Positions 12,095-62,382 of a stretch of 64,000 nt of DNA are shown in pieces. This DNA comes from Patescibacteria group bacterium (GTDB lineage Bacteria; Patescibacteriota; Patescibacteriia; UBA1558; GWA2-36-10): positions 18,060 to 82,059 of the forward strand of contig JBAZKN010000003.1 in assembly GCA_041650755.1 (NCBI GenBank), in the 5' to 3' direction. Made by a program: the position numbers and the translations under genes. Position 1 is the stretch's first letter, and the number at the start of each line of letters is the position of its first letter. The notes beneath the pieces are model-generated. The model saw only the letters and a program-made list of their open reading frames with translations, searched no databases and was not told the origin of the DNA.

Positions 12095-12294
12095 GGTTAA
12101 AATGTAATTGACAATTAAGTGACCTAAACCCGTCGTTTTCGGCGGGCATGGTCTCAAATCGTAACTCACATACAACCCGTCATTCAGGGCGTGAGTTACG
12201 TTATGCAGGGAAACTTGCATAGGGGCTTTAAAACCCTCCTGGTGGCGGGCTTTATGTTTGGCCCGCGTTTCCGGGAAAAGCGAAAGGAAACGTC

Positions 12295-17615: not shown

Positions 17616-18866
17616 TTACCCTCCAAATTTCCAGGTGACACCGGCCGAGATGACATGAACGTCGACTTCGTATTTTCCCGGTGCCAGGAAGCCGAAGTGT
17701 TTTTCAACTTCTCTTTTACCCCAGCCGTAGGTATAGCCGAGATCGAAATCCAAGTTGTCGTTCGGTCTGTATCCAAGGCCGAAAGAAATTCCCGGGCCGT
17801 CCACTTCCGGTGCGGTCGGCGTGGTGGTTTCCCGCGGAATGGCCGCGGTATGCCAGCAGACGCCGCTTCTCAAAAGCCACTTTTCGGTCAGCTCGTACTC
17901 GGCGCCGAGATGGAAGCTGAAGTTGTCATGCCAATTCAGCTTTTGGCCGTATTCAAGCAGCTCGCCGATTTTGGCCGTCATCTGTTTGGCCGCCGAATAG
18001 TCGTACCAGTTGGCGTCAGCCAGAATTCTCAACCTGTTATTCGGTTCAAACTTCAAGCCGAGTCCGAGTCTTCCCGGAAAGTAGACCGAAGCGGTCATGC
18101 CGTATTTTCCAAGAGGCAAGCCCAGCAGCTCCGGCTTGGTTGATCCTTTCAGGCGGACCTCCATGGGCAGACTGTAGGACGCGCCGACAGTCCATTGGTC
18201 GTTGAGCCGGTAGAGAATTCCGATTCCGCCACCCAGTCCGATGCCGTCAGCTTCAGCTTCCATACTTGCCATGTCCAGTCGAAAGTTTCCAAGTTGGAGA
18301 CTGCCGGCATTGATAAACTGGGCGTAGCCGATATTCAGGCTCAGTCCGACGGAGAGTTCATTATTGACCCGGTAGGCCATTGCCGGAACCAGCGAAGTCA
18401 GACTCAGCATTCCTTCTTTCCAGGGAAAGTCGCCGTCATACTTGCTGCCAAGACCGCCAACAACGTGCCAGCCCGCTCCAATCGTCAACCGGTCGTTCAG
18501 GCGTGTGGAAAATCCGCCGAAAGGCAGAGGGATGATTCCTCCCTCCGAATTTTTGGATAATTCTCGGCCGCATTCCGACCACTGATATGTCCCTTCGGCG
18601 ATAATTGATTCCATTCCGAGTTGTAGTGAAGTACGCTTGATGTTGCTTAACCCCGCAGGGTTGTAGTAGAACGCCGAAGCGTCTACCGGATCGGCGATTT
18701 GAGCACCGCACATTCCCATGGCTCTGGGACCGACACTGCCGCTGACGCGGTTGACTCCTCCGGCTATTGCCGAATTGACGGTCAACAAGACCAGCATAAA
18801 TACCGCAATCGTTATCTTTTTCATCGTTTGTCCTCCCTTGGTAAAGGGTTTCGGTTTAAGGTTCAT
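17616..18866 (-). CDS. FadL/TodX-family outer-membrane transporter for hydrophobic compounds
   Basis: Signal peptide MKKITIAVFMLVLLTVNSAIA (probable start 18824 preceded by AGGGAGG RBS); glycine/aromatic-rich beta-strand pattern and C-terminal WKFGG barrel terminus typical of the FadL/Toluene_X family; GC-rich. Confidence 0.7.
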   Translation of the reverse strand: MNLKPKPFTKGGQTMKKITIAVFMLVLLTVNSAIAGGVNRVSGSVGPRAMGMCGAQIADPVDASAFYYNPAGLSNIKRTSLQLGMESIIAEGTYQWSECGRELSKNSEGGIIPLPFGGFSTRLNDRLTIGAGWHVVGGLGSKYDGDFPWKEGMLSLTSLVPAMAYRVNNELSVGLSLNIGYAQFINAGSLQLGNFRLDMASMEAEADGIGLGGGIGILYRLNDQWTVGASYSLPMEVRLKGSTKPELLGLPLGKYGMTASVYFPGRLGLGLKFEPNNRLRILADANWYDYSAAKQMTAKIGELLEYGQKLNWHDNFSFHLGAEYELTEKWLLRSGVCWHTAAIPRETTTPTAPEVDGPGISFGLGYRPNDNLDFDLGYTYGWGKREVEKHFGFLAPGKYEVDVHVISAGVTWKFGG

Positions 18867-18983
18867 TCAAGATACAATCCAACAGGTTATAGTACTCTTA
18901 TTTGTTGAAAAAGTCAAGGTTGGCTGGACATTTTTTGAAAAATGTGCTATTATGCTTTGTTGCCTGAATTTGGTATAATTTAG

Positions 18984-20027
18984 GTGGTTCTTTTGAAAGT
19001 CTGTCAACAATTACAACCCATAGGAGGAGTCGAAATGAACAGAACCGTGTCGATTCAGCGACGATCTGTCAAAGCGGCTCCTTCAGTAAATGGAGCCGAA
19101 AAGAAACGCAGTTGGTTGAATGCCGTAAAACTGCACACGAGGCGCATTGCCATTGAGTTGTTGAATCTCCTGATTAATCATGACTTGCTGTTCTGGTTGG
19201 TCGGGTTGGTCAACAAAAAGGTTAATCTGATTGAGTCCGTATTCCTGGTTTATCCGGCGAATGAGAAATATGCGCTGGCGTATGTATACCCGTGTCGCCT
19301 ACCAAAGGTAAAGTGGAATCCCATCCCGGGCGGGCTGTTGTGGCAAAACGGAAAATTAACCGTCATGTTCATGATTTCCGCAACCAATGGCCAATTCACT
19401 GATCCACAGAATACGGAAAATCTCCGTCGGATGTCCGATCGAATGGAAAGGCTGCGCCAACTGTTTGGTGCCAGGAGAAAGACGTTTGCCGGAATAGTAC
19501 CCGGAGTCCTGTACGCAGGGAAAATCATCCGGGAAGCTCCGGAAGCGGATTTGACCGCCCAGGCGGTTGCCCAGGCAATTGATTCAGTGAAAGTTGAAGA
19601 ATCGCTTGGCGACGACACGCCGGTCATCATCCTTGGTGGCAGAGGTTTTATCGGCCGTCGAGTAATCGGGTTACTCAAAGATTCTAATGTCTTCAGTATT
19701 GACTCGTCAGACGGTCAGGGCAGTAAAGATTGGCCAAACCACCTTCGCGGGCAGCGAGTCATCGTTGTCAACATCACTCTCAACAATGCCCTTAAGGATT
19801 ACCTTGACGTAATCTGGCCGGGCACGGTGGTGATCAATGAGGTTTATCCTGAGCCGAACTCGGCTATTCTGGAGAGACTGAAAAACAATGGCTGCAGCTG
19901 TCATCACGTGGTTGGTGTCCAAGCCAACGCCTTTCCGTCTTTTCCGGCAGCTTATCATGGAGCGATTCCTTGTTGCGCGGCATGGCCTTCGTCAGAAATG
20001 AAGGTCGTCGTGCGAAGAATCGTTTAG
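18984..20027 (+). CDS. NAD(P)-binding Rossmann-fold protein, function unknown
   Basis: ILGGRGFIGRR (GxGxxG); probable start MNRTVS at 19035 with AGGAGG RBS; GC-rich, co-oriented islet with the FadL gene. Confidence 0.4.
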   Translation: MVLLKVCQQLQPIGGVEMNRTVSIQRRSVKAAPSVNGAEKKRSWLNAVKLHTRRIAIELLNLLINHDLLFWLVGLVNKKVNLIESVFLVYPANEKYALAYVYPCRLPKVKWNPIPGGLLWQNGKLTVMFMISATNGQFTDPQNTENLRRMSDRMERLRQLFGARRKTFAGIVPGVLYAGKIIREAPEADLTAQAVAQAIDSVKVEESLGDDTPVIILGGRGFIGRRVIGLLKDSNVFSIDSSDGQGSKDWPNHLRGQRVIVVNITLNNALKDYLDVIWPGTVVINEVYPEPNSAILERLKNNGCSCHHVVGVQANAFPSFPAAYHGAIPCCAAWPSSEMKVVVRRIV

Positions 20028-26588: not shown

Positions 26589-28265
26589 ATGAGACTAAAA
26601 TTTAAATTGGATAAATATTTTTTGAATCCACAAAATGATAACTGCGATGAGCTTTTTAAACAGATATCCATTTTAGACAAAGCGATTCAGAAATTAAAAA
26701 AAGTAAATCAATCTAGGATTCCCGGAATAGTATCTAAAAAGTACGAAAGTTATTTAAAAAAATCTTTCATACCGCAAAATGAACAAAATCCAGCGAAAGT
26801 AATGGCCGAATTATCGGAGCTCTTTAAGGGCGCAGTTAGATGGCATCATCCTGGCACGATGATCAACGTAACACCGCCACCGTTAATTTCGACAGTAGCG
26901 GCTTCGACAATGACGATGCTATATAATCCTAATCTGGCAATTGATGTTTCTTGTGGCGGTCTAAGCGTCTCTGAATTAGAGGTGACTAAACATATGGCGA
27001 CATTAGTAAACTGGGATTGGCACAAAGCTTTTGGCGTCTTTACCTTTGGTGGTAAGGGAACCAATTTATATGCCGTTAAGGTAGCTTTAAATCGGTACCG
27101 TTCTGATTTTAAAGAGAAAGGACTGCAGGGCAAAGTCGCAATAACCTCAACCGAGCAGGGCCATCCTTGTCATATTGAAGTATGCGATTGGCTTGGCTTA
27201 GGCAGATCCAATTGCCTTAGATTGCCTCTAGATTCCACGGGAAGAATTGACTCAAAACAGGCTGAAAAAATAACCTCATCTTTTATTGAAGAAGGAGGCG
27301 CTATTCCATGCATGATAGTCAACGGTGGAACCACGCTGCATAATACCGTTGATCCGATTAAGAAAATGGTGCAATTAAGAGATCGGTTGGTTAAGAAGTA
27401 TAAATTAAAATATAAGCCTCATGTTCACGTTGATTCAGTTTTGGGTTGGGCTTGGCTTTTCTTTAAAGATTATGATTTTAAAAGTAATCCAGAGAAATTA
27501 AATAAAATAGCAATCAAGAAATTAGAGAACATGTATAAGCGGTTGTCAGAAATTGAATTTGCCGATTCTTTTGGAGTGGATTTTCATAAAACCGGTTTTT
27601 GTCCTTATCTATCAAGTGTGTTTATCGCAAAAGATAAAAAATGGATTGATAATCTTGGTGTGTCCCCACAACCATCATTGGCTGAATTGCAATTTGGTAA
27701 TTATTCGCCCTTTACTTATACCTTAGAATCATCCAGACCTTTAACTGGGTCGGTATCGGCTTTAGTCGCTTTAAGATCGCTGGGCATGCGAGGTTTCAGA
27801 AAAATTATTTCCGATTTGGTGAGTAGTACGGAAATAATCAAAAGACGATTTAATGAGATGAAGGGGTTTTGCGTGGCAAATCCCGAAGATGAAAATTTCG
27901 TTACCCTGTTTATGGTGTTGCCGCCAGATATTGATAGTAGCTATAAAGAAGCTTTAAATGCTGGTCGCGCTGTTGCCATTAGAGTTGCCGAGTATAATTA
28001 TAAATTTTATTTATTTTTAATGGAGAAACAAATTATTGGCGGCAGTTCTTTGGCCATTGACTACATTAGCGGCTACGAAAAATCGAAGTCAGACATCAAA
28101 CTGGGAGTGTTGAAAATGTATCCAGTTTCACCATATTTTGATACCAAATATGTCGACCAGTTATCAAAGGAATTAGTTAAGTATAAAAAGGAATTTGAAA
28201 AAGTAGCCGATAAATTTAAACCCAAGGCCTGTCCTCACGTGCCAAAAAATTTAGTCCTAAGATAA
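26589..28265 (+). CDS. group II PLP-dependent decarboxylase (tyrosine/aromatic amino-acid decarboxylase-like)
   Basis: HHPGTMINVTPPPL and NPNLAIDVSCGGLSVSELEV segments characteristic of TDC/MfnA-type decarboxylases; 558 aa. Confidence 0.65.
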   Translation: MRLKFKLDKYFLNPQNDNCDELFKQISILDKAIQKLKKVNQSRIPGIVSKKYESYLKKSFIPQNEQNPAKVMAELSELFKGAVRWHHPGTMINVTPPPLISTVAASTMTMLYNPNLAIDVSCGGLSVSELEVTKHMATLVNWDWHKAFGVFTFGGKGTNLYAVKVALNRYRSDFKEKGLQGKVAITSTEQGHPCHIEVCDWLGLGRSNCLRLPLDSTGRIDSKQAEKITSSFIEEGGAIPCMIVNGGTTLHNTVDPIKKMVQLRDRLVKKYKLKYKPHVHVDSVLGWAWLFFKDYDFKSNPEKLNKIAIKKLENMYKRLSEIEFADSFGVDFHKTGFCPYLSSVFIAKDKKWIDNLGVSPQPSLAELQFGNYSPFTYTLESSRPLTGSVSALVALRSLGMRGFRKIISDLVSSTEIIKRRFNEMKGFCVANPEDENFVTLFMVLPPDIDSSYKEALNAGRAVAIRVAEYNYKFYLFLMEKQIIGGSSLAIDYISGYEKSKSDIKLGVLKMYPVSPYFDTKYVDQLSKELVKYKKEFEKVADKFKPKACPHVPKNLVLR

Positions 28266-28294
28266 GTTAAAATATTATCATCTGTCCTAAAAAA

Positions 28295-28340
28295 ATTGAG
28301 CCCCTTTTTCGTAGTTTGCAACTGACAGAAAAGGGGCCCG
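28295..28340. terminator. bidirectional terminator hairpin between convergent decarboxylase and tyrS-2 genes
   Basis: GAGCCCCTTTTTC..(loop)..GAAAAGGGGCCC stem with an A-run upstream and U-rich stem arm. Confidence 0.5.
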
Positions 28341-28345
28341 AGGTT

Positions 28346-29680
28346 TCATTGCTCGACAACATTGATCGCGAAGAATTTGAGCTTACCAACTCGCAGCTTA
28401 CACGTTTCCGTGATTGATGCAGAGGAGGCGAGAATTGATTCTCCGGAGTCCGATATCAACCGAACCGCGTTCTGATCGAAGAGTCGGCGCAACTCCCCTT
28501 TGCTTTTGAAATGACCAGAGTTAACGAGTAAGTCAAGTAAGTTTTGGCCGCTACTGGCCGTTAGGGGAATGCAGTCCGCGTCCGTGACGATCCGTTTGGA
28601 GAACTTCCGCTCAAAGTTCTCTCGTTCCTGGAGACCCGCTGCGAGGTCTTTGGCTTCGAGCGCAACCAGGAACGTCGCCAATTGCTTTTTCGCTTCCATC
28701 GGATCAGAGTCGATTAGCTGTTTGAGCGCCTCGACCTCACGTTCGTGGACATCGGCGAAACTGCAGAAGTACTGGAAGATGAGCTGGTCGGGGATTGACA
28801 TGATTTTGCCGAACTTGTCTTCCAAACTGGCGTTGACGGGTACGGTGTTGCCGAAACTCTTGCTCATCTTACGGCCTGCTCCGTCCGTGCCTTCGAGCAA
28901 CGGGACCATCAGTGCAACTTCTTCCTCTATTCCTTTTTCCTGCATGATCTTGCGACATTGCTGGAAGTTGAGAAGCTGATCGATGCCTCCGATCTCGACG
29001 TCGGTTGACAGTTGGACTGAATCAATTCCCATCAACACGCCGTAGCACACTTCCGCCAGAGAAACACCCTGTTCGTTTCTCATCCTCTTGCGGAAGTCTT
29101 CCCTCTGCATCGCCTCGGTCAGGTTGATCCGTTGAAACACTGCGAATACATCTCGCAGCGTCATGGGGTTTAACCACTCCGAGTTGCGGTGAAGATGGAG
29201 CCGTGACAGGTCAATGTACCTGCCGATCTGGTCCTGGTAGGTTCGCATGTTTTCGACGATTTGTTCATTGGTGAGCGGTACCCGACCCGTATCTCGTTCG
29301 GTCGGATCACCAATGATCGCGGTGAAGTCACCAATGATAAAATCAATGTGGTGACCCGCCTTAGCGAATTGGTTGAGGAGCATAATCGGCACGATATGAC
29401 CCAGGTGGATGTTTGAAGCGGTTGGGTCAATGCCAAACTTCACTCGCAGCTTTCTGCCTGCTTCCAGGAGACGCTGCAGCTTGCCCGCGGTAATGATTTC
29501 CTGACACTTGGGGTACAGGAAACCGACTAGCTCGCTGGCATTCATTCCTTCCCACGACTCGCTGATGCGTGGGAAAAACTGCTGGTCGAACCTAGTTTTG
29601 GTATTCATGGTTCCTGTTCCCTTCTGTGACTGTTGTTGAATGTTCAAAGCTACCCAATGTAGCATTGTATTGTATATCAA
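28346..29680 (-). CDS. tyrS: tyrosine--tRNA ligase, second GC-rich paralog
   Basis: HLGH, KMSKS, S4-like C-terminus; clearly homologous to 25365..26567 (for example LRVKFGIDPTASNIHLGH versus LRVKLGIDPTSPNIHIGR) but very different codon/GC usage; probable start MNTKTRF at 29608. Confidence 0.8.
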   Translation of the reverse strand: MIYNTMLHWVALNIQQQSQKGTGTMNTKTRFDQQFFPRISESWEGMNASELVGFLYPKCQEIITAGKLQRLLEAGRKLRVKFGIDPTASNIHLGHIVPIMLLNQFAKAGHHIDFIIGDFTAIIGDPTERDTGRVPLTNEQIVENMRTYQDQIGRYIDLSRLHLHRNSEWLNPMTLRDVFAVFQRINLTEAMQREDFRKRMRNEQGVSLAEVCYGVLMGIDSVQLSTDVEIGGIDQLLNFQQCRKIMQEKGIEEEVALMVPLLEGTDGAGRKMSKSFGNTVPVNASLEDKFGKIMSIPDQLIFQYFCSFADVHEREVEALKQLIDSDPMEAKKQLATFLVALEAKDLAAGLQERENFERKFSKRIVTDADCIPLTASSGQNLLDLLVNSGHFKSKGELRRLFDQNAVRLISDSGESILASSASITETCKLRVGKLKFFAINVVEQ

Positions 29681-29884
29681 ATTATGATATTTGTCAAGGA
29701 GTTTTTTGCTTATTATAGGTATAAATTTTTTTAATTACCATTGACAAAAATGGCTTTATTGTTCTAAAGTTAATCAGATCAGTCGATTCGTAAATGGCTG
29801 GTTACAATGTTTTCATGCTCCTTACAACTGGAGTAAGGTGAAATTATAGAGCTATATGAGTCAAACACCAAGGAGAAAACAGCG

Positions 29885-30766
29885 ATGAACACTCTGCAAA
29901 TAAAAGCAGTGGCATATAAGAGCAAGTATTATTACCAGGGACTCGATTACCTTGCAAGGAATCACCCGGATAATTCTCATTTGCTCTCGTGCTACGAAGG
30001 AACCAGTTTCAGGGATTTGGCTAGGCACGTGACGTTCGACAAAACCGGCAAAGTTCTGAAGTTGAACGGATATCTGGCAAGACCGCGCCGATTCGTTTTG
30101 ATTGCGGCTGATGAAAGAATCGCTGGTGTCATGGTTACAATTTCTTTGCCCGAGTTTTACAAAGAGATTGACTATGAAGACTACGCCGTGATCGACACCC
30201 AGACCATTTCTGGATATGAAAGATTTTTGGATCATCTGTCTTTCGGCGGACGGGCGGAAATCGTGACCTTTGATGCAAATCAGGTCAAGTCGGTGAAATC
30301 AAGATTTCCCATCAGGGGAATTCACCACTGGACTGTTTTTGCTTCTCAAGGAAAAACTTCGACTCGTTCTGTCAACGCTGTCTTGATGGACAGAGGTGAT
30401 CTGAAAATCGCTAGAGAGTTGGCACAACAAGTGCCGGAAGAATCGTCGCCGTTTCGTTTGTTGATGTTTCAACTCAGAGGGTTGCCGTACAGAAACTACG
30501 CCTTTAGCTACAACGGCAGACCAGCGGTTTTTGTGGGTATTTGCCCTTACAGTCGGGGAGTCTACCAGGTCAATTACTTCATAAGACTTTCCGGCAGTAC
30601 CGCTTTCTCGCTCGCTGCTTTAGAGTCCATAAGTAGATTAGTCAAAACCGAAAGGTGCAGATTAATCTGGCGATTGAGAAAGAAAGAAGTATTGAAGAAC
30701 AAAGTTCTGATTGCGAGATCGAGCTTTGGGAAGTTGACCGATGAACAGCATTTGCATTTGAAATAG
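29885..30766 (+). CDS. hypothetical protein (GC-rich islet)
   Basis: 293 aa; AGGAG RBS 8 nt upstream; no motif recognised. Confidence 0.35.
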   Translation: MNTLQIKAVAYKSKYYYQGLDYLARNHPDNSHLLSCYEGTSFRDLARHVTFDKTGKVLKLNGYLARPRRFVLIAADERIAGVMVTISLPEFYKEIDYEDYAVIDTQTISGYERFLDHLSFGGRAEIVTFDANQVKSVKSRFPIRGIHHWTVFASQGKTSTRSVNAVLMDRGDLKIARELAQQVPEESSPFRLLMFQLRGLPYRNYAFSYNGRPAVFVGICPYSRGVYQVNYFIRLSGSTAFSLAALESISRLVKTERCRLIWRLRKKEVLKNKVLIARSSFGKLTDEQHLHLK

Positions 30767-30812
30767 CCTTTGTTCCACACTGACTAGACGGTGTAGTTGG
30801 AATAAGGTAAAT

Positions 30813-32405
30813 TTGAATGCATCACAAGCCCAACACCAAGGAGGAATAGCGATGAAAGGTCGTATAACGTTGATTAGTCCGAACACGCCAGGTTCGTACC
30901 GTTCCGCGAAAATCAATGATGAAAACCTCGCCCTTGGTTATTTGGCAGCCGTGCTTGATATGCATGGTTATGAGGTAGAAATTGTTGATGCGCGGATGAG
31001 TCAGCTCTCCCCAGAACTAGCAGCAGAGCAGATTCAGAGATTTCAGCCCTTCTTTCTCGGTATTTCTACGATTTCCGAGGAGTCAGTGCCGTGGATTGAG
31101 GCATTGTGGGCGTTGCTCGGTTCGCCGAGCTATCTGAAACACGTCTGCATGGGTGGCTATTATCCATCCCTGCAACCGGAGACAGTGTTGCACCGATTGC
31201 CTTTCGTTGACTCGGTCGCCAGAGGAGAAGGCGAAATTACTGTCGTGGAGTTGACTGAAAAAGTTAGGCTCGGCGAATGTTGGGATAATGTCATGGGGAT
31301 TGCCAGAAGATTAGCTGACGGATCCGTCGCAATGAATCCGCGTCAGGCCGTCATCGCCAATCTTGATTCCTTGCCTTTCCCGAAACGTTATGCCAACAGC
31401 AACGGCACGGAGATCGTCATCGAGGGGGCCCGAGGATGTTTTGGCCGGTGTTCTTTTTGTGCCGTAGGTCCCCACTTCGAAGCGGGTTGCAAACTCGCCT
31501 GGAGGGGTCGTTCACCAGAGCACATCATTGCGGAGATAATCGAGCTTCGTCAATTGTTCCCCGGTAATTTCCGATACCGCTTCATTGACCCTGACTTTTT
31601 CGGATCAGCATCTCGAGTTCACTCGGATAGGATTGAAAGAATTGCTACCCTCGTCCGCGAGAAAGTCCCTGGGATTGAGCTCTACGTTGAAGCGCGAGTA
31701 ACCGACATTTGCCGAAAAGACATCTTGGAGTCCTTGAAACAAGCTGGGCTTAAAGAGGTCTATCTCGGCATTGAATCGGGTAGCAATAAGATCCTTGCCC
31801 TTATGGGTAAGTGCGCTTCGGCGGCTGATGCAATCAGGGCGACGAGCCTTCTCGAGGCAGTGGGGATTAACTATCAGTATGGTCATATGATGGTTACTCC
31901 TTGGACCGAATACCAAGACGTGCTCGACAGTCTAGCTCTTCTGCGAGTAATTGGCAGAGTGCAATTTGATAAGTTGTTTAACGAGCTCTATTTGATTCCC
32001 GGGACCAAACTCGTGGATCAAGTAGGGAGCGAACATCAACTTGTCAGAGAGGAGGGCACAGGGTACTACTTCTACGAGGCCAATCAGTTGGTCAGAAACA
32101 TCCGCGCCATTGGCGTTGCCTTTGAAACAGTATACAAATCGTTCTCTGAAAGCCTTTGGTATTTATACAAAGACGTTCAGCGGCACGAGCAGTGTAATGT
32201 TAAAGGGGCGACAGCCATTCAACGCGAGTTAAGCGGTTGGTTCATTGCCGCCTTCGAGTTTTGTTTAGAGAGAAGCAAGGATAAACCACTTAGCACTTCG
32301 CAAGTGCACGGCATCGTGGAAGAAGCGATCGCTCGCTTCCAAGCAGTCTTTGAGACAATCCGGGAAAAGTTGGATCAGGACATCACCTTCCCCAGAATGA
32401 TTTAG
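30813..32405 (+). CDS. B12-binding-domain radical SAM protein (class B rSAM)
   Basis: CFGRCSFC (CxxxCxxC) at about aa 210, preceded by an N-terminal cobalamin-binding-like Rossmann domain; probable start MKGRITL at 30852 with AAGGAGG RBS. Confidence 0.75.
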   Translation: MNASQAQHQGGIAMKGRITLISPNTPGSYRSAKINDENLALGYLAAVLDMHGYEVEIVDARMSQLSPELAAEQIQRFQPFFLGISTISEESVPWIEALWALLGSPSYLKHVCMGGYYPSLQPETVLHRLPFVDSVARGEGEITVVELTEKVRLGECWDNVMGIARRLADGSVAMNPRQAVIANLDSLPFPKRYANSNGTEIVIEGARGCFGRCSFCAVGPHFEAGCKLAWRGRSPEHIIAEIIELRQLFPGNFRYRFIDPDFFGSASRVHSDRIERIATLVREKVPGIELYVEARVTDICRKDILESLKQAGLKEVYLGIESGSNKILALMGKCASAADAIRATSLLEAVGINYQYGHMMVTPWTEYQDVLDSLALLRVIGRVQFDKLFNELYLIPGTKLVDQVGSEHQLVREEGTGYYFYEANQLVRNIRAIGVAFETVYKSFSESLWYLYKDVQRHEQCNVKGATAIQRELSGWFIAAFEFCLERSKDKPLSTSQVHGIVEEAIARFQAVFETIREKLDQDITFPRMI

Positions 32406-58437: not shown

Positions 58438-58956
58438 TTGTGTTATAATATTCTTATTATGCCCACTCTAGCTGTCATTTCTGACGTTCATGATAATTTA
58501 GCCAATCTGCAAAAGGCCTTGGATTATATTACTGATCATAAAATTGATTATTTGATTTGCCTGGGCGACCTGCAGAGCTTGGAGGCCTGGCAAATGCTGG
58601 ATGCTCTAAGTATGCCTGCCTGGGGCGTGCATGGTAATGCCGACAGCTATGGCTGGCAACTAAAAGATTTAAAAAACATCAAAGTATTTGAAGAGTTTGG
58701 CGAAGTCACTTTAGCTGATAAAAATATAATTTTCTGCCATTACCCAGAAATTGTAAAAAAATTTATCATGGATAAAGTGGGTAAATATCAGCTGGCTCTT
58801 CATGGACACAGCCATAAGCCGTGGGAAGAAAATTATCATGGTACAAAAATATTAAACCCTGGTAACGTAGCCAATATACGCTATGCACCCAGTTTTGCTA
58901 TAATTGACTTAGATACCCTGCAAGCTAAATTAATATTAATCAATGAAATAAAATGA
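58438..58956 (+). CDS. metallophosphoesterase (YfcE-like)
   Basis: VISDVHDN, GD, GNAD, HGHSH metal-ligand motifs; probable start MPTLAV at 58459. Confidence 0.7.
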   Translation: MCYNILIMPTLAVISDVHDNLANLQKALDYITDHKIDYLICLGDLQSLEAWQMLDALSMPAWGVHGNADSYGWQLKDLKNIKVFEEFGEVTLADKNIIFCHYPEIVKKFIMDKVGKYQLALHGHSHKPWEENYHGTKILNPGNVANIRYAPSFAIIDLDTLQAKLILINEIK

Positions 58957-59741
58957 CCTATCAACTAGAATTAAGCAGCGCCAAAAAGGCCGCCCTAAAA
59001 GCCGGTAAATATCTGGCTAAAGAGTTTATAAAATTCCACCGTCAGCAAGCAGATCACAAAAGCCGCCATGAATTAGTGACTAAATGTGATAAACGGGCAG
59101 AAAAAATAATCCTGCAGACTTTGAAAAAACGCTTTCCTAAACTAAACTTTTTATCTGAAGAAAAAGGCGCCAATCACAAAAACCCAGAATATCTATGGAT
59201 AATAGACCCTTTGGATGGCACTAATAATTTTGTTGTCCATAATCCACTTTTCAGCGTAGCCATTGCCCTAGCGCACGATAAACAAATTGTGATGAGCGTC
59301 ATCTATGTGCCTATGCTCAAAGAATTATATTGGGCAACTAGTAGGGGCACCTATAAAAATGGACGGAAAATATCCGTCTCTCGCCACCACGATGTCAAGG
59401 AAATGTTTTTGACATATTGCCATGGCAAAAGTTTGGCCGATAATAAAAAAGCTTTTAAGCTATACGAATACTACCACTTGCATGCTCATGAGTGCCGACA
59501 CTTTGGCAGCACATCGATAGAATTAGCCATGGTGGCTAGCGGCCAGACTGACAGCCTGGTAGTATCTGGACCAAATCTTTGGGATGTGGCGGCTGGCATC
59601 ATGCTGGTCAAAAATGCTGGTGGCCATGTCACTGATTGGCAAGGCAGACCATGGCAACTGCATTCAAAATCTGTATTAGCTAGCAATAAGAAATTACAAC
59701 CCCAAATACTCAGAGAGTTAAAAAAACTTAGAGTTGCTTAA
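58953..59741 (+). CDS. suhB: inositol monophosphatase family protein
   Basis: WIIDPLDGT and WDVAAG motifs; 4-nt overlap with upstream gene. Confidence 0.8.
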   Translation: MTYQLELSSAKKAALKAGKYLAKEFIKFHRQQADHKSRHELVTKCDKRAEKIILQTLKKRFPKLNFLSEEKGANHKNPEYLWIIDPLDGTNNFVVHNPLFSVAIALAHDKQIVMSVIYVPMLKELYWATSRGTYKNGRKISVSRHHDVKEMFLTYCHGKSLADNKKAFKLYEYYHLHAHECRHFGSTSIELAMVASGQTDSLVVSGPNLWDVAAGIMLVKNAGGHVTDWQGRPWQLHSKSVLASNKKLQPQILRELKKLRVA

Positions 59742-59842
59742 AACCTAAAAATCTGCTAAATTACTGCGAGTTAATAAATAGGGTCACGTAACCAAGTGGT
59801 AAGGCATGGGTCTGTCCCTCGACCCCGCACAAATTTAAATAT

Positions 59843-59917
59843 GGCCTGGTAGCCAAGTGGTAAGGCATGGGTCTGCAAAACCCTCATCCGGCGGTTCGAT
59901 TCCGCCCCAGGCCTCCA
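59843..59917 (+). tRNA. tRNA-Cys (anticodon GCA)
   Basis: 75 nt incl. CCA; acceptor GGCCTGG/CCAGGCC; anticodon loop CTGCAAA; T-arm GGCGG-TTCGATT-CCGCC. Confidence 0.7.
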
Positions 59918-60024
59918 TAATTTTAATGACTCGGGATCCTCGCAACCAGATGGGCTCACTTCGTTCGTCTCATCGTTGCGGGACAAAACCCTTATTCACC
60001 GGTTCAATTCCGCCCGTGACCTCC

Positions 60025-60047
60025 ATCGAGCTTAGCTCGATTTTTTT
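60025..60047 (+). terminator. rho-independent terminator ending the tRNA-Cys locus
   Basis: ATCGAGC-TTA-GCTCGAT perfect hairpin followed by TTTTTTT. Confidence 0.75.
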
Positions 60048-60099
60048 GATACAAAAAAACTGGGCTTGAATTGCCTTCAAACCCAGATATTGGTCTCGC

Positions 60100-60759
60100 T
60101 CATACACCAACCAATGTACTTCTAAGCTGATCAATGATCTCCAAAAATTCTTGCCCACGTATGCTAAAATTACGCTTAGCGTAATTTTTTGACACTCTCT
60201 CATCGGCCAAAAGCGTAGACAAAGAATTAATAGGGTCTTTCCTTTCTGGGCTACCGCACCATCTAACAGCAAAAAAACTATTAAACCCCCTAAAACGAGC
60301 CGAATTTTGTGCCAACCAACTAGCCGAGTGCCACCTGACATTGGCCAAAGTAGCTACCATGGGGTAGTCTGCCAAACGAACACCCCTTATGGTAAGGCCG
60401 GAAGAAACCACATCATCCAACACCACTATATTGGCTATTCCTATATAAAACCGCTCGGAATAAACAATTTTCCGACACTCCACAATCGGACCTTTATCGG
60501 ACCAGTACCGCTTGGCATATATACTAATATTATGCCAACGATCAAGCCAGCCGTCCGGCAAATAACTTTTAACAATACTGGCGCCGTTGCCAGGCAAAAC
60601 AAGCAGGGTGTCTTGAGGGGAAAACCTGCGCCAAGCTTCCCATCCCAACAAGTTCTTGGTCAAATCTTCCGCCCAAACCAGCTCCAAATCAAATGAACTA
60701 AAACTATTCTGCCATTTTCTAGATACACCCGGTACGTCGATGATGATGTGGTTAGCCAT
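60100..60759 (-). CDS. phosphoribosyltransferase-domain protein
   Basis: PRPP-binding motif IVVLDDVVSSGLT; 219 aa; GC-richer than neighbours. Confidence 0.55.
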   Translation of the reverse strand: MANHIIIDVPGVSRKWQNSFSSFDLELVWAEDLTKNLLGWEAWRRFSPQDTLLVLPGNGASIVKSYLPDGWLDRWHNISIYAKRYWSDKGPIVECRKIVYSERFYIGIANIVVLDDVVSSGLTIRGVRLADYPMVATLANVRWHSASWLAQNSARFRGFNSFFAVRWCGSPERKDPINSLSTLLADERVSKNYAKRNFSIRGQEFLEIIDQLRSTLVGV

Positions 60760-61889: not shown

Positions 61890-61976
61890 TGGTACCGGCG
61901 GTCGGACTTGAACCGACACACCCTTGCGGGTACAGGATTTTAAGTCCTGCGTGTCTACCAATTCCACCACGCCGGC
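61890..61976 (-). tRNA. tRNA-Leu (anticodon UAA), class II
   Basis: 87 nt incl. CCA; GCCGGCGTGGTGGAATTGGTAGACAC..; anticodon arm CAGGA-CTTAAAA-TCCTG; long variable arm; T-arm GTCGG-TTCAAGT-CCGAC. Confidence 0.85.
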
Positions 61977-62065: not shown

Positions 62066-62317
62066 TCTTCGACATCCTGAGCTTGTCGAAGGATGGAGCG
62101 AGTGATCCATTCGGCTCACTCCGTTCGCTCAGGATCTTTTGTTGGCAATTAATGCCATCAATTTATTTTTATCTTCGACATCCTGAGCTTGTCGAAGGAT
62201 GGAGCGAGTGATCCATTCGGCTCACTCCGTTCGCTCAGGATCTTTTGTTGGCAATTAATGCCATCAATTTATTTTTATCTTCGACATCCTGAGCTTGTCG
62301 AAGGATGGAGCGAGTGA
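62066..62317. repeat. 106-bp tandem repeat array (2.4 copies) abutting and overlapping the 3' end of tRNA-Gly; degenerate partial copy at 61995-62029
   Basis: Units start at 62066, 62172, 62278 (identical by eye); each unit ends (tRNA orientation) with TCACTCGCTCCA = tRNA-Gly acceptor 3' strand + CCA and contains nested inverted repeats (CTTCGACA/TGTCGAAG; ATCCTGAGC/GCTCAGGAT; GAGCGAGTGA/TCACTC..GCTC). Confidence 0.8.
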
Positions 62318-62382
62318 CCGGGCTCGAACCGGCGACCTTTTCCTTGGCAAGGAAACGTTCTAGCCAACTGAACTACACTCGC
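62306..62382 (-). tRNA. tRNA-Gly (anticodon GCC)
   Basis: 77 nt incl. CCA; acceptor GCGAGTG/CACTCGC; D-arm GTTC-AGTTGGCTA-GAAC; anticodon arm TTTCC-TTGCCAA-GGAAA; T-arm GCCGG-TTCGAGC-CCGGT. Confidence 0.85.

What the first reader, a model, noticed from the sequence alone, without database searches (positions are those of the whole stretch)
59781..60047. tRNA-Cys nested between complementary halves of a second, disrupted tRNA gene
Upstream of intact tRNA-Cys (59843..59917) lies a 5' tRNA half at 59782-59825. Its D-arm and anticodon-stem 5' strand are 25 of 26 identical to tRNA-Cys, and it closes an anticodon arm GGGTC-TGTCCCTC-GACCC with an 8-nt loop. The matching 3' piece lies 170 nt further on at 59998-60025: T-loop TTCAATT, T-stem strand CCGCC, acceptor strand CGTGACC that is exactly complementary to the upstream GGTCACG, discriminator, CCA, then a perfect terminator. 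Between lie further decayed tRNA-like bits. The compensatory acceptor halves indicate one ancestral tRNA gene now split around tRNA-Cys. The cause could be tandem-duplication decay, an insertion event, or, more speculatively, a split or intron-containing tRNA whose halves are joined post-transcriptionally.
Basis: seen in the sequence. Interest (0 to 1): 0.55.

Follow-up and report, generated by a model that had tools for sequence, protein, structure and literature searches.

The report
tRNA-Cys gene nested inside split tRNA-Cys
In this Patescibacteria genome the resident cysteine tRNA gene has been cut exactly in the middle of its anticodon by a 169-base insertion carrying a second, complete cysteine tRNA gene between two conserved structured arms; a related species has the same layout, and it fits no known type of tRNA intron.

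Summary
59782-59814 and 59984-60025 are the two halves of one tRNA-Cys(GCA) gene, which I call X. They abut exactly at anticodon positions 34/35. An orthologous locus in a relative (L134) carries the same gene uninterrupted. Between the halves lies a 169-bp insertion. It consists of a 15-nt left arm, a spacer, the intact tRNA-Cys B (59843-59917), a spacer, and a 54-nt right arm holding a long hairpin. A different species (L133, 69% SuhB identity) has the same nested layout at the same site. Between the two species the arms are 96% identical, like B at 99%, while the spacers are about 52% identical (p=3e-6). The arms are therefore under selection and are not "decayed tRNA bits". The insertion is not a group I intron: Rfam finds nothing, the boundaries are G|U...A|C, and only 94 nt lie outside B. 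It has no bulge-helix-bulge (BHB) motif, no target duplication and no integrase nearby. In this window X looks degenerate: it has A10 where 118 of 118 real tRNA-Cys genes have G10, and two T-stem mismatches. B is therefore most likely the working gene and X a co-transcribed relic. In L133, however, the X halves are 100% identical to the intact gene in L134, so RNA-level function or site-specific mobility is not excluded. The function of the arms is unknown.

The parts
59734..59762 (+). Promoter-like TTGCTT, 17-nt spacer, TAAATT, directly after the SuhB-like gene. Presumed start of the transcription unit.
   Evidence: The same TTGC(C/T)T ... TCTGnTAAATT block is conserved at this position in all orthologous loci. 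The generic sigma-70 scan did not call it, so this is inferred from conservation only.
59782..59814 (+). X 5' half: nucleotides 1-34 of the resident tRNA-Cys(GCA) gene (acceptor GGTCACG, D-arm, anticodon stem strand, C32 U33 G34).
   Evidence: Identical at 29 of 33 positions to the 5' half in L133 and to the intact L134 gene. It carries A10, whereas 118 of 118 real tRNA-Cys genes have G10.
59815..59829 (+). Left arm of the insertion, TCCCTCGACCCCGCA. 59815-59818 belong to helix H1 and 59821-59827 to helix H2.
   Evidence: 14 of 15 identical to L133. Pairings come from the consensus fold.
59830..59842 (+). A+T-rich spacer 1 (leader of B).
   Evidence: Only 8 of 13 identical to L133.
59843..59917 (+). 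B: complete tRNA-Cys(GCA) with acceptor GGCCTGG/CCAGGCC, U73 and encoded CCA. The probable working gene.
   Evidence: ARAGORN and Rfam 64.8 bits. 74 of 75 identical to B in L133. Differs by 1-2 nt from the sole tRNA-Cys of L034 and L141.
59918..59929 (+). A+T-rich spacer 2 (trailer of B).
   Evidence: Only 5 of 12 identical to L133.
59930..59983 (+). Right arm of the insertion. CGGGATC (59932-59938) pairs with the left arm to form H2. A long hairpin spans 59941-59980: CGCAAC, C, AGATGGGC, loop TCACTTC, GTTCGTCT, CATC, GTTGCG. The final GGGA pairs with TCCC to form H1.
   Evidence: 52 of 54 identical to L133. One of the two changes turns a G-U pair into A-U and the other lies in the loop. Single copy in the window. 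Absent from all other fetched loci. No Rfam family matches.
59984..60025 (+). X 3' half: nucleotides 35-76 of the resident tRNA-Cys (C35 A36, anticodon stem strand, variable loop, T-arm, acceptor CGTGACC, U73, CCA).
   Evidence: 35 of 42 identical to L133. The T-stem ACCGG/CCGCC has two mismatches, and no real tRNA-Cys among 118 has two.
60025..60048 (+). Intrinsic terminator ATCGAGCTTAGCTCGAT plus a T run, closing the transcription unit.
   Evidence: The same terminator directly follows the single tRNA-Cys in the ortholog L034.

Best explanation
**What it is.** The locus originally held one tRNA-Cys(GCA) gene (type X) between a conserved promoter and a terminator. A single 169-bp block was inserted blunt between G34 and C35, at the centre of the TGCA palindrome of the anticodon loop, with no target duplication. 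The block carries its own complete tRNA-Cys(GCA) gene (type B), so the cell never lacked tRNA-Cys. Patescibacteria genomes normally have only one tRNA-Cys gene.

**How it most likely works (inferred).** The whole unit is transcribed as one RNA. In that RNA four sets of pairings would form a long interrupted stem with B at its tip and a conserved hairpin as a side branch:
- the X acceptor strands (7 bp);
- the X anticodon-stem strands;
- a 6-bp helix H1 (U33 G34 UCCC with GGGA C35 A36);
- a 7-bp helix H2 formed by the two insertion arms.

B would be released by the ordinary tRNA 5' and 3' processing enzymes and is the working tRNA-Cys.

**Status of X.** In this window X is a degenerating relic whose D-stem and T-stem have taken damaging changes.

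**The arms.** They are kept by selection for a role not yet known. Possibilities are processing or stability of the precursor, or an independent small RNA.

**Shown versus inferred.** Shown: the split, its exact position, the uninterrupted ortholog, a second species with the same layout, and conservation of the arms. Inferred: co-transcription, which copy is functional, and the role of the arms.
For: - **Exact abutment.** The halves meet at 34/35, and the joined sequence is called tRNA-Cys(GCA).
- **Uninterrupted ortholog.** L134 carries the gene intact at the same place after the SuhB-like gene and the same promoter block.
- **Second species.** L133 has the same nested layout at the same site, with SuhB 69% identical.
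- **Conservation by segment, window versus L133**. The arms match at 66 of 69 positions, B at 74 of 75, the X halves at 64 of 75 and the spacers at 13 of 25. Arms versus spacers gives p=3e-6.
- **Arms specific to the nested layout.** B-type tRNA-Cys is the only tRNA-Cys at this locus in L034 and L141, and the arms are absent there.
- **X outside the functional range.** Window X has A10 and two T-stem mismatches. Among 118 real tRNA-Cys genes G10 is invariant and none has two T-stem mismatches. With B masked, ARAGORN intron mode still does not call the window's X.
- **Predicted fold.** The consensus fold gives the X acceptor, X anticodon stem, H1, H2 and the hairpin. The scaffold without B is strongly structured in L133, z=-3.9.
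- **Terminator** follows directly after the X 3' half.
- **No mobility genes.** No integrase or transposase lies within 3 kb.
- **Copy number.** Patescibacteria usually have a single tRNA-Cys gene (supplement of PMC13011429).
Against: - The X halves of L133 carry no change at all relative to the intact L134 gene, although non-conserved sequence between L133 and its closest relative L130 has diverged heavily. A long-dead pseudogene should have decayed.
- Window X keeps a perfect 7-bp acceptor stem, including a lineage-specific T3-A70 pair. All long-range helices are kept while only the local D-stem and T-stem are damaged.
- No function is demonstrated for the arms.
- The window's scaffold is only weakly structured (z=-1.3).
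- The insertion mechanism is unknown.
- The nested layout is seen in two species that are not sisters. This requires either several precise losses or repeated site-specific gain.
- Only two nested loci could be retrieved, so covariation support is minimal.
Confidence: 0.6

Rival explanations
1. The 169-nt block is a true intervening sequence of a new kind. B would be cut out of the precursor by the normal tRNA end-processing enzymes. The arms would hold the two X halves together through H1, which places the two junctions opposite each other. The ends would then be trimmed and ligated, for example by an RtcB-type ligase. One transcript would thus yield two tRNA-Cys molecules.
For: - The X halves of L133 are 100% identical to an intact ortholog.
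- The arms are conserved as strongly as B.
- H1 juxtaposes the junctions, and the scaffold is strongly structured in L133.
- Window and L133 differ by paired changes at 3:70 and 28:42 across the insertion.
- Patescibacteria are unusually rich in anticodon-loop introns (PMC13011429).
Against: - No group I core was found by Rfam even at E<=10.
- Only 94 nt lie outside B.
- The boundaries needed to restore GCA are G|U...A|C, not U|...G|. The U/G-compatible frame gives anticodon ACA.
- There is no BHB motif and no known bacterial pathway for such a removal.
- Window X has A10 and two T-stem mismatches, outside the range of 118 real genes.
- An intron-less gene with the same anticodon sits in the same transcript, which the survey paper calls rare.
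- The paired differences can simply reflect different resident alleles if the block was gained separately.
Confidence: 0.13
2. The block is a small non-autonomous mobile DNA cassette, or the stump of a larger integrative element, that targets the tRNA-Cys anticodon loop. It carries a replacement tRNA-Cys so that insertion is not lethal. The conserved arms would be its recombination ends. On this reading it was gained independently in the window lineage and the L133 lineage.
For: - The same site is used in two non-sister species, while closer relatives have the empty site.
- The L133 halves are undecayed, which suggests a recent gain.
- The termini are inverted repeats, TCCC...GGGA, extended to TGTCCC...GGGACA by the target.
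- Integrative elements are known to target tRNA anticodon loops and to carry replacement tRNA sequence (own knowledge: Williams 2002).
- tRNA fragments next to mobile elements are documented in PMC9897764 and PMC3293823.
- Relatives show other partial 5' copies of tRNA-Cys.
Against: - No recombinase gene lies nearby.
- No second copy of the arms exists in the 64-kb window.
- Nothing matched in viral contigs.
- No core sequence is duplicated at the junctions, as tyrosine or serine integrases would leave.
- The spacers of the two copies have diverged to about 52% identity, so the copies are old rather than recently spread.
Confidence: 0.2
3. This is the decay of a tandem array of three tRNA-Cys copies (X, B, X). 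The first copy lost its 3' half and the third lost its 5' half.
For: Partial tRNA-Cys duplications are common at this locus in relatives.
Against: - It needs two independent deletions whose ends happen to abut exactly at 34/35.
- The sequence in front of the 3' half is not decayed tRNA but a conserved hairpin.
- The same boundaries recur in L133.
- No relative shows an X-B-X array.
Confidence: 0.03
4. This is an assembly artefact caused by the 23-26-nt repeat shared by the two 5' regions.
For: Short-k Logan assemblies break inside the locus.
Against: - A k=141 contig spans the locus, and the two Logan contigs overlap it without a single difference.
- An NCBI genome of another species has the same layout.
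Confidence: 0.01

Closest known systems
Group I introns in anticodon loops of Patescibacteria tRNA genes (Nakagawa et al. 2026, PMC13011429)
   Same: Same phylum. An intervening block sits inside the anticodon loop of a tRNA gene. It is co-transcribed and has no protein gene inside. The annotation tool misses the outer gene.
   Different: No group I catalytic core is detectable. Only 94 nt lie outside the embedded tRNA. The boundaries that restore the anticodon are G|U...A|C instead of U|...G|. A complete tRNA gene is embedded. tRNA-Cys is not among the reported hosts. An uninterrupted gene with the same anticodon is present.
tRNA gene fragments left by integrating genetic elements that carry replacement tRNA sequence (Williams 2002, from memory; PMC9897764; archaeal model in PMC3293823)
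   Same: Pieces of a tRNA gene flank foreign DNA. The foreign DNA supplies tRNA sequence that keeps the cell viable. The anticodon loop is a known target.
   Different: Here the cargo is a whole tRNA gene rather than a partial copy fused to the resident gene. Both resident halves are kept and abut exactly, with no duplicated core. The insert is only 169 bp and has no recombinase. Its arms are conserved between species.
Archaeal split and intron-containing tRNA genes processed at bulge-helix-bulge motifs (reviewed in PMC4090602)
   Same: Two tRNA halves have matching acceptor strands, and a helix forms next to the junction.
   Different: This is a bacterium. The halves lie in cis, 169 nt apart. 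The junctions lie opposite each other inside a continuous 6-bp helix, with no 3-nt bulges. A second tRNA is embedded.
Long-range processing stems that bracket mature RNAs in rRNA operons (own knowledge)
   Same: Leader and trailer sequences pair over a long distance around an embedded stable RNA that is then cut out.
   Different: Here the bracket is built from the two halves of a former tRNA plus two dedicated arms. No RNase III-type long duplex is present, and no processing has been shown.

Membership tests
Group I intron in a tRNA anticodon loop | Catalytic core (P3-P9) recognisable by the Rfam group I covariance model RF00028 | tested here: not met
   cmscan of 59600-60200 at E<=10 with permissive filters returned no intron family. 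Only 28 + 66 nt are available outside the embedded tRNA. Caveat: PMC13011429 reports divergent tRNA-Thr introns that RF00028 also misses.
Group I intron in a tRNA anticodon loop | U as the last base of the 5' exon and G as the last base of the intron, in the frame that restores the native anticodon | tested here: not met
   Comparison with the intact L134 gene fixes the junctions at G34|U and A|C35. The only U/G-compatible frame gives anticodon ACA.
Group I intron in a tRNA anticodon loop | Located within the anticodon loop | tested here: met
   The insertion lies between positions 34 and 35.
Group I intron in a tRNA anticodon loop | Self-splicing in vitro | not testable with these tools
   Needs transcription of 59770-60050 and incubation with GTP and Mg2+.
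Archaeal-type BHB intron or split tRNA | Two 3-nt bulges separated by a 4-bp helix, with the cleavage sites in the bulges | tested here: not met
   In the consensus fold both junctions lie inside a continuous 6-bp helix, U33 G34 UCCC with GGGA C35 A36.
Archaeal-type BHB intron or split tRNA | Splicing endonuclease (EndA) and ligase encoded by the organism | not tested
   Only 64 kb of the genome was available, and no systematic protein family scan was run.
att-site scar of a tRNA-targeting integrative element | Direct repeat of the crossover core (part of the tRNA) at both junctions | tested here: not met
   The halves abut with neither overlap nor duplication.
att-site scar of a tRNA-targeting integrative element | Integrase or recombinase gene, or other element genes, between or beside the fragments | tested here: not met
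   The insert is 169 bp with no ORF of note. The neighbours are trigger factor, RarA, a metallophosphatase, the SuhB-like gene, a PRT-like protein, an LDcluster4 protein and a TrpR-like protein.
tRNA pseudogene (outer gene X in this window) | Loss of invariant nucleotides or stem pairing relative to functional orthologs | tested here: met
   A10 against G10 in 118 of 118 genes. Two T-stem mismatches against at most one in 118 genes. ARAGORN intron mode fails on the window but succeeds on L133.
Functional tRNA-Cys (inner gene B) | Canonical cloverleaf, GCA anticodon, U73 discriminator, high covariance-model score, conservation in relatives | tested here: met
   B differs by 1-2 nt from the tRNA-Cys of L133, L034 and L141. 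Aminoacylation is not testable here.

The most novel reading that the evidence does not exclude
The 169-nt block is a previously undescribed class of bacterial tRNA intervening element that is not a group I intron. It houses a complete tRNA and is bracketed by conserved arms. It would either be removed at the RNA level, so that one transcript yields two tRNA-Cys species, or it would be a site-specific self-rescuing mobile cassette that inserts into the anticodon of the single-copy tRNA-Cys gene and supplies the replacement itself. The undecayed halves in L133, the selection on the arms and the patchy distribution among relatives do not exclude either version.
Probability: 0.3. Interest if true: 0.85.

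Novelty: new variant of a known kind. Interest (0 to 1): 0.6.

Why it matters
Patescibacteria have tiny genomes, usually with a single tRNA-Cys gene, and they are already known for unusual tRNA introns. Here that essential gene is interrupted in its anticodon by a block that carries a spare copy of the same gene, and the flanks of the block are conserved as tightly as the tRNA itself. If the arms turn out to direct RNA removal or DNA mobility, this would be a new route by which bacterial tRNA genes are split, replaced or spread. There is also a practical lesson for annotation. Standard tRNA finders report only the inner gene, and short-k assemblers break at this locus. Such nested loci are therefore probably under-counted.

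Tried and rejected
- **ARAGORN intron modes** on the native sequence report only B. With B shuffled, the outer gene is called in L133 but not in the window.
- **Rfam**, at gathering threshold and at E<=10, finds no intron, ribozyme or other family over the insert.
- **Similarity between the right arm and the leader element of relatives** looked real by eye. It is not significant: an nhmmer profile gives no hit and pairwise scores fall within shuffles.
- **Genome scan with the shared 23-mer** returned only ordinary tRNA-Cys genes from many phyla. It did yield the ortholog L034.
- **Metagenome scan with the terminator junction** returned only L034's own contig and one unrelated tRNA cluster.
- **Viral-contig scans** with arm and junction motifs gave either nothing or unrelated protein-coding matches.
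- **Pseudo-ORF searches** to find further nested loci gave no further nested locus. One gave four weak hits from loci with other kinds of partial tRNA-Cys duplication. The other gave two irrelevant repeat proteins.
- **Models considered and set aside.** Group I boundaries do not fit (wrong bases, ACA anticodon). There is no BHB motif. Two successive integrase events (a 5' and a 3' replacement) should leave an overlapping core, which is absent. Serine-recombinase dinucleotide duplication is absent. IS200/IS605-type insertion lacks a transposase and the hairpin positions do not fit. A triple tandem array needs two coincident deletions.

Full report
**1. What is in the sequence**

The window comes from a Patescibacteria (CPR) genome. 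The proteins flanking the site are named "Patescibacteria group bacterium" by their source, and their nearest relatives are Magasanikbacteria-like.

Downstream of a SuhB-like inositol monophosphatase gene (58953-59741), ARAGORN and Rfam find one tRNA, tRNA-Cys(GCA), at 59843-59917. I call it B.

These are a 5' tRNA part starting GGTCACG at 59782, a 3' part ending CGTGACC-T-CCA at 60025, and a terminator (60025-60048).

The 3' part begins at 59984 with CAAA-ACCCT, the 3' side of the anticodon loop and stem. The 5' part stops resembling a tRNA exactly at G34 (59814). The two pieces therefore abut without gap or overlap. Joining 59814 to 59984 gives a 75-nt tRNA-Cys(GCA) that ARAGORN accepts. I call this outer gene X. 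The intervening block is 59815-59983, 169 nt.

**2. Not chance, not artefact**

- The sequence is identical in a k=141 ENA contig and in two Logan contigs from another run. The Logan contigs break inside the locus only because of the short repeat.
- The 25/26 identity between the X 5' half and B is not a sign of recent duplication. The shared 23-mer occurs in intact tRNA-Cys genes of more than 120 species from many phyla.
- The informative features are the three paired differences between the acceptor stems of X and B, and the exact abutment.

**3. Orthologous loci**

I took homologs of the SuhB-like protein and looked up their contigs. I added one hit from the genome scan (L034). This gave nine related loci with the same promoter-like block after the SuhB gene.

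- **L134** has an uninterrupted X-type tRNA-Cys (GGCCACG...CGTGGCC).
- **L133** (NCBI GCA_964992075.1; SuhB 69% identical to the window) has the same nested layout as the window:
  - X 5' half to G34;
  - TCCCTCGATCCCGCA;
  - a spacer, then B, then a spacer;
  - CTCGGGATCC...GTTGCGGGA;
  - X 3' half from C35.
  Its joined halves are 100% identical to the intact L134 gene.
- **L034 and L141** have a B-type tRNA-Cys as the only gene, without the arms.
- **L130, L138 and L140** have an X-type gene.
- Seven of these loci (L034, L130, L133, L137, L138, L140, L141), and evidently L136 whose contig ends there, also carry an upstream partial copy plus a hairpin element (see section 9).

X and B types are scattered over the SuhB tree, and the two nested loci are not sisters.

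**4. Selection on the arms**

Identity between window and L133, segment by segment:

| Segment | Identical positions |
|---|---|
| X 5' half | 29/33 |
| Left arm | 14/15 |
| Spacer 1 | 8/13 |
| B | 74/75 |
| Spacer 2 | 5/12 |
| Right arm | 52/54 |
| X 3' half | 35/42 |

- Arms versus spacers gives p=3e-6. Arms versus X halves gives p=0.05.
- Because the spacers have diverged this far, the two copies are old. The arms are held by purifying selection about as strongly as B.
- The two changes in the right arm are a G-U to A-U switch in a predicted pair and a loop change.
- The region between B and the 3' half is therefore a conserved element, not decayed tRNA.

**5. Predicted RNA structure**

The two-sequence consensus fold gives these helices:
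- the X acceptor stem, 7 bp, with one paired change at 3:70;
- the X anticodon stem, with a paired change at 28:42;
- helix H1, 6 bp, formed by U33 G34 UCCC with GGGA C35 A36, so that the two junctions face each other;
- helix H2, formed by GAYCCCG with CGGGAUC, which encloses B;
- a long hairpin in the right arm.

With B replaced by a tetraloop, the scaffold is strongly structured in L133 (z=-3.9). It is only weakly structured in the window (z=-1.3).

**6. What it is not**

- **Group I intron.** Rfam finds nothing at E<=10. Only 94 nt lie outside B. The junctions fixed by the intact ortholog are G|U...A|C. The U...G-compatible frame that ARAGORN picks in L133 yields anticodon ACA. Patescibacteria group I tRNA introns are known for Asn, Asp, Met, Phe, Tyr and Thr, not Cys (PMC13011429).
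- **BHB intron.** The junctions lie in a continuous helix.
- **Integrase scar.** No duplicated core is present and no recombinase gene lies nearby.
- **Tandem-array decay.** This needs two deletions abutting by coincidence, and the same coincidence in two species.
- **Prior description.** I found none of a tRNA gene nested inside a split tRNA gene in bacteria. The nearest analogues are archaeal fragment-plus-element loci (PMC3293823) and fragments left by integrating elements (PMC9897764).

**7. Which copy works**

Among 118 genuine tRNA-Cys genes, G10 is invariant. T-stem mismatches number 0 in 112 genes and 1 in 6 genes, and never 2.

Window X has A10 (an A-C mismatch in the D-stem) and two T-stem mismatches. 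With B masked, ARAGORN intron mode still rejects it, while it accepts X in L133. B is canonical and nearly invariant across relatives. Patescibacteria normally have one tRNA-Cys gene.

I conclude, by inference, that B is the working gene in this window and that X is degenerating.

Three observations cut the other way:
- The L133 halves are undecayed.
- The window's long-range helices (acceptor, anticodon stem, H1, H2) are almost intact, while only the local D-stem and T-stem are damaged.
- The arms are conserved even though X looks dead here.

Together these suggest that the halves and arms now serve as a long-range bracket around B, or that the block is gained site-specifically.

**8. Verdict**

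The best explanation (confidence 0.6) is a single blunt 169-bp insertion at the centre of the anticodon TGCA. It carries a replacement tRNA-Cys and two selected arms of unknown function, and X in this window is a co-transcribed relic. A new kind of intervening sequence (0.13) and a site-specific self-rescuing cassette (0.2) remain open. RNA data would settle the question.

**9. Seen in passing**

- In seven relatives (and evidently L136, whose contig ends there), the first 12-25 nt of the tRNA-Cys gene and its leader are repeated upstream. The repeat is followed by a hairpin whose inner stem covaries and then by a conserved AAGTGGGCAA box.
- The repeat matches the acceptor type of the complete tRNA downstream. 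In L133 it matches B, not the adjacent X half.
- The X tRNA of L130 carries a B-type T-arm, which suggests recombination between the two types.
- Spurious ORFs in public data point to further loci with a partial tRNA-Cys copy upstream of an intact one.

Noticed in passing
L130 3329-3425; L133 3341-3436; L138 3147-3244; L140 3340-3434; L141 1398-1495; L137 3169-3259; L034 minus strand 6169-6067: A conserved leader element sits upstream of tRNA-Cys in relatives but not in the window. It begins with an exact repeat of the first 12 nt of the tRNA (up to 25 nt including leader in L140). A CCCGCC...GGCGGG stem follows, whose inner hairpin covaries (4 pairs with double changes). Then comes a conserved GCAAGCAAGTGGGCAA box and an A+T spacer. 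The repeat always matches the acceptor type of the complete downstream tRNA, and in L133 it matches B rather than the adjacent X half. This could be a structured leader RNA or the scar of another insertion.
   Followed up: partly
L130 3426-3500, L134 3342-3415, L133 halves, window 59984-60025: Two tRNA-Cys types (X: GGCCACG acceptor; B: GGCCTGG acceptor) are patchily distributed among close relatives. Mosaics occur: the X gene of L130 has the B-type T-arm, and L133 shares an unusual T-arm (GCCGG/CCGAC) with the more distant L134. This suggests recombination or exchange of alleles at the locus.
   Followed up: partly
P0172-P0175 (ENA contigs, DNA not retrievable): Spurious ORFs that translate the reverse strand of tRNA-Cys show other contigs where a partial 5' copy of tRNA-Cys lies about 60-80 nt upstream of an intact tRNA-Cys. 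That copy extends past the anticodon stem, so its break point is different. Partial 5' duplications of this tRNA may be recurrent.
   Followed up: partly
window 59789-59814 and 59850-59875; L002 and L004 ends: Logan (short-k) assemblies of the same organism break inside this locus because of the 25/26-nt repeat. Standard ARAGORN and Rfam report only the inner gene. Nested loci of this kind are likely under-represented in assemblies and annotations.
   Followed up: yes
window 12121-12237 (+): Strong match to the Rfam LOOT RNA family (83 bits, gathering score 46), a candidate structured RNA of unknown function.
   Followed up: no
L128 10804-10826; L034; window 60022-60044: The junction TCCA-TCGAGCTTAGCTCGATTTT (tRNA 3' end plus terminator) is identical behind tRNA-Cys in the window and in L034. 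It is also identical behind a different tRNA at the end of a tRNA cluster on an unrelated metagenome contig.
   Followed up: no
window 18001-20000 and 28001-32000: Local G+C rises to 0.46-0.50 against a background near 0.40. The cause was not examined.
   Followed up: no
window 61890-61976 and 62306-62382 (-); L034, L130, L133, L134: tRNA-Leu(TAA) and tRNA-Gly(GCC) lie close to the tRNA-Cys locus in the window and in all longer orthologous loci. Their orientation and the intervening genes differ, which points to local rearrangement around a conserved tRNA neighbourhood.
   Followed up: no
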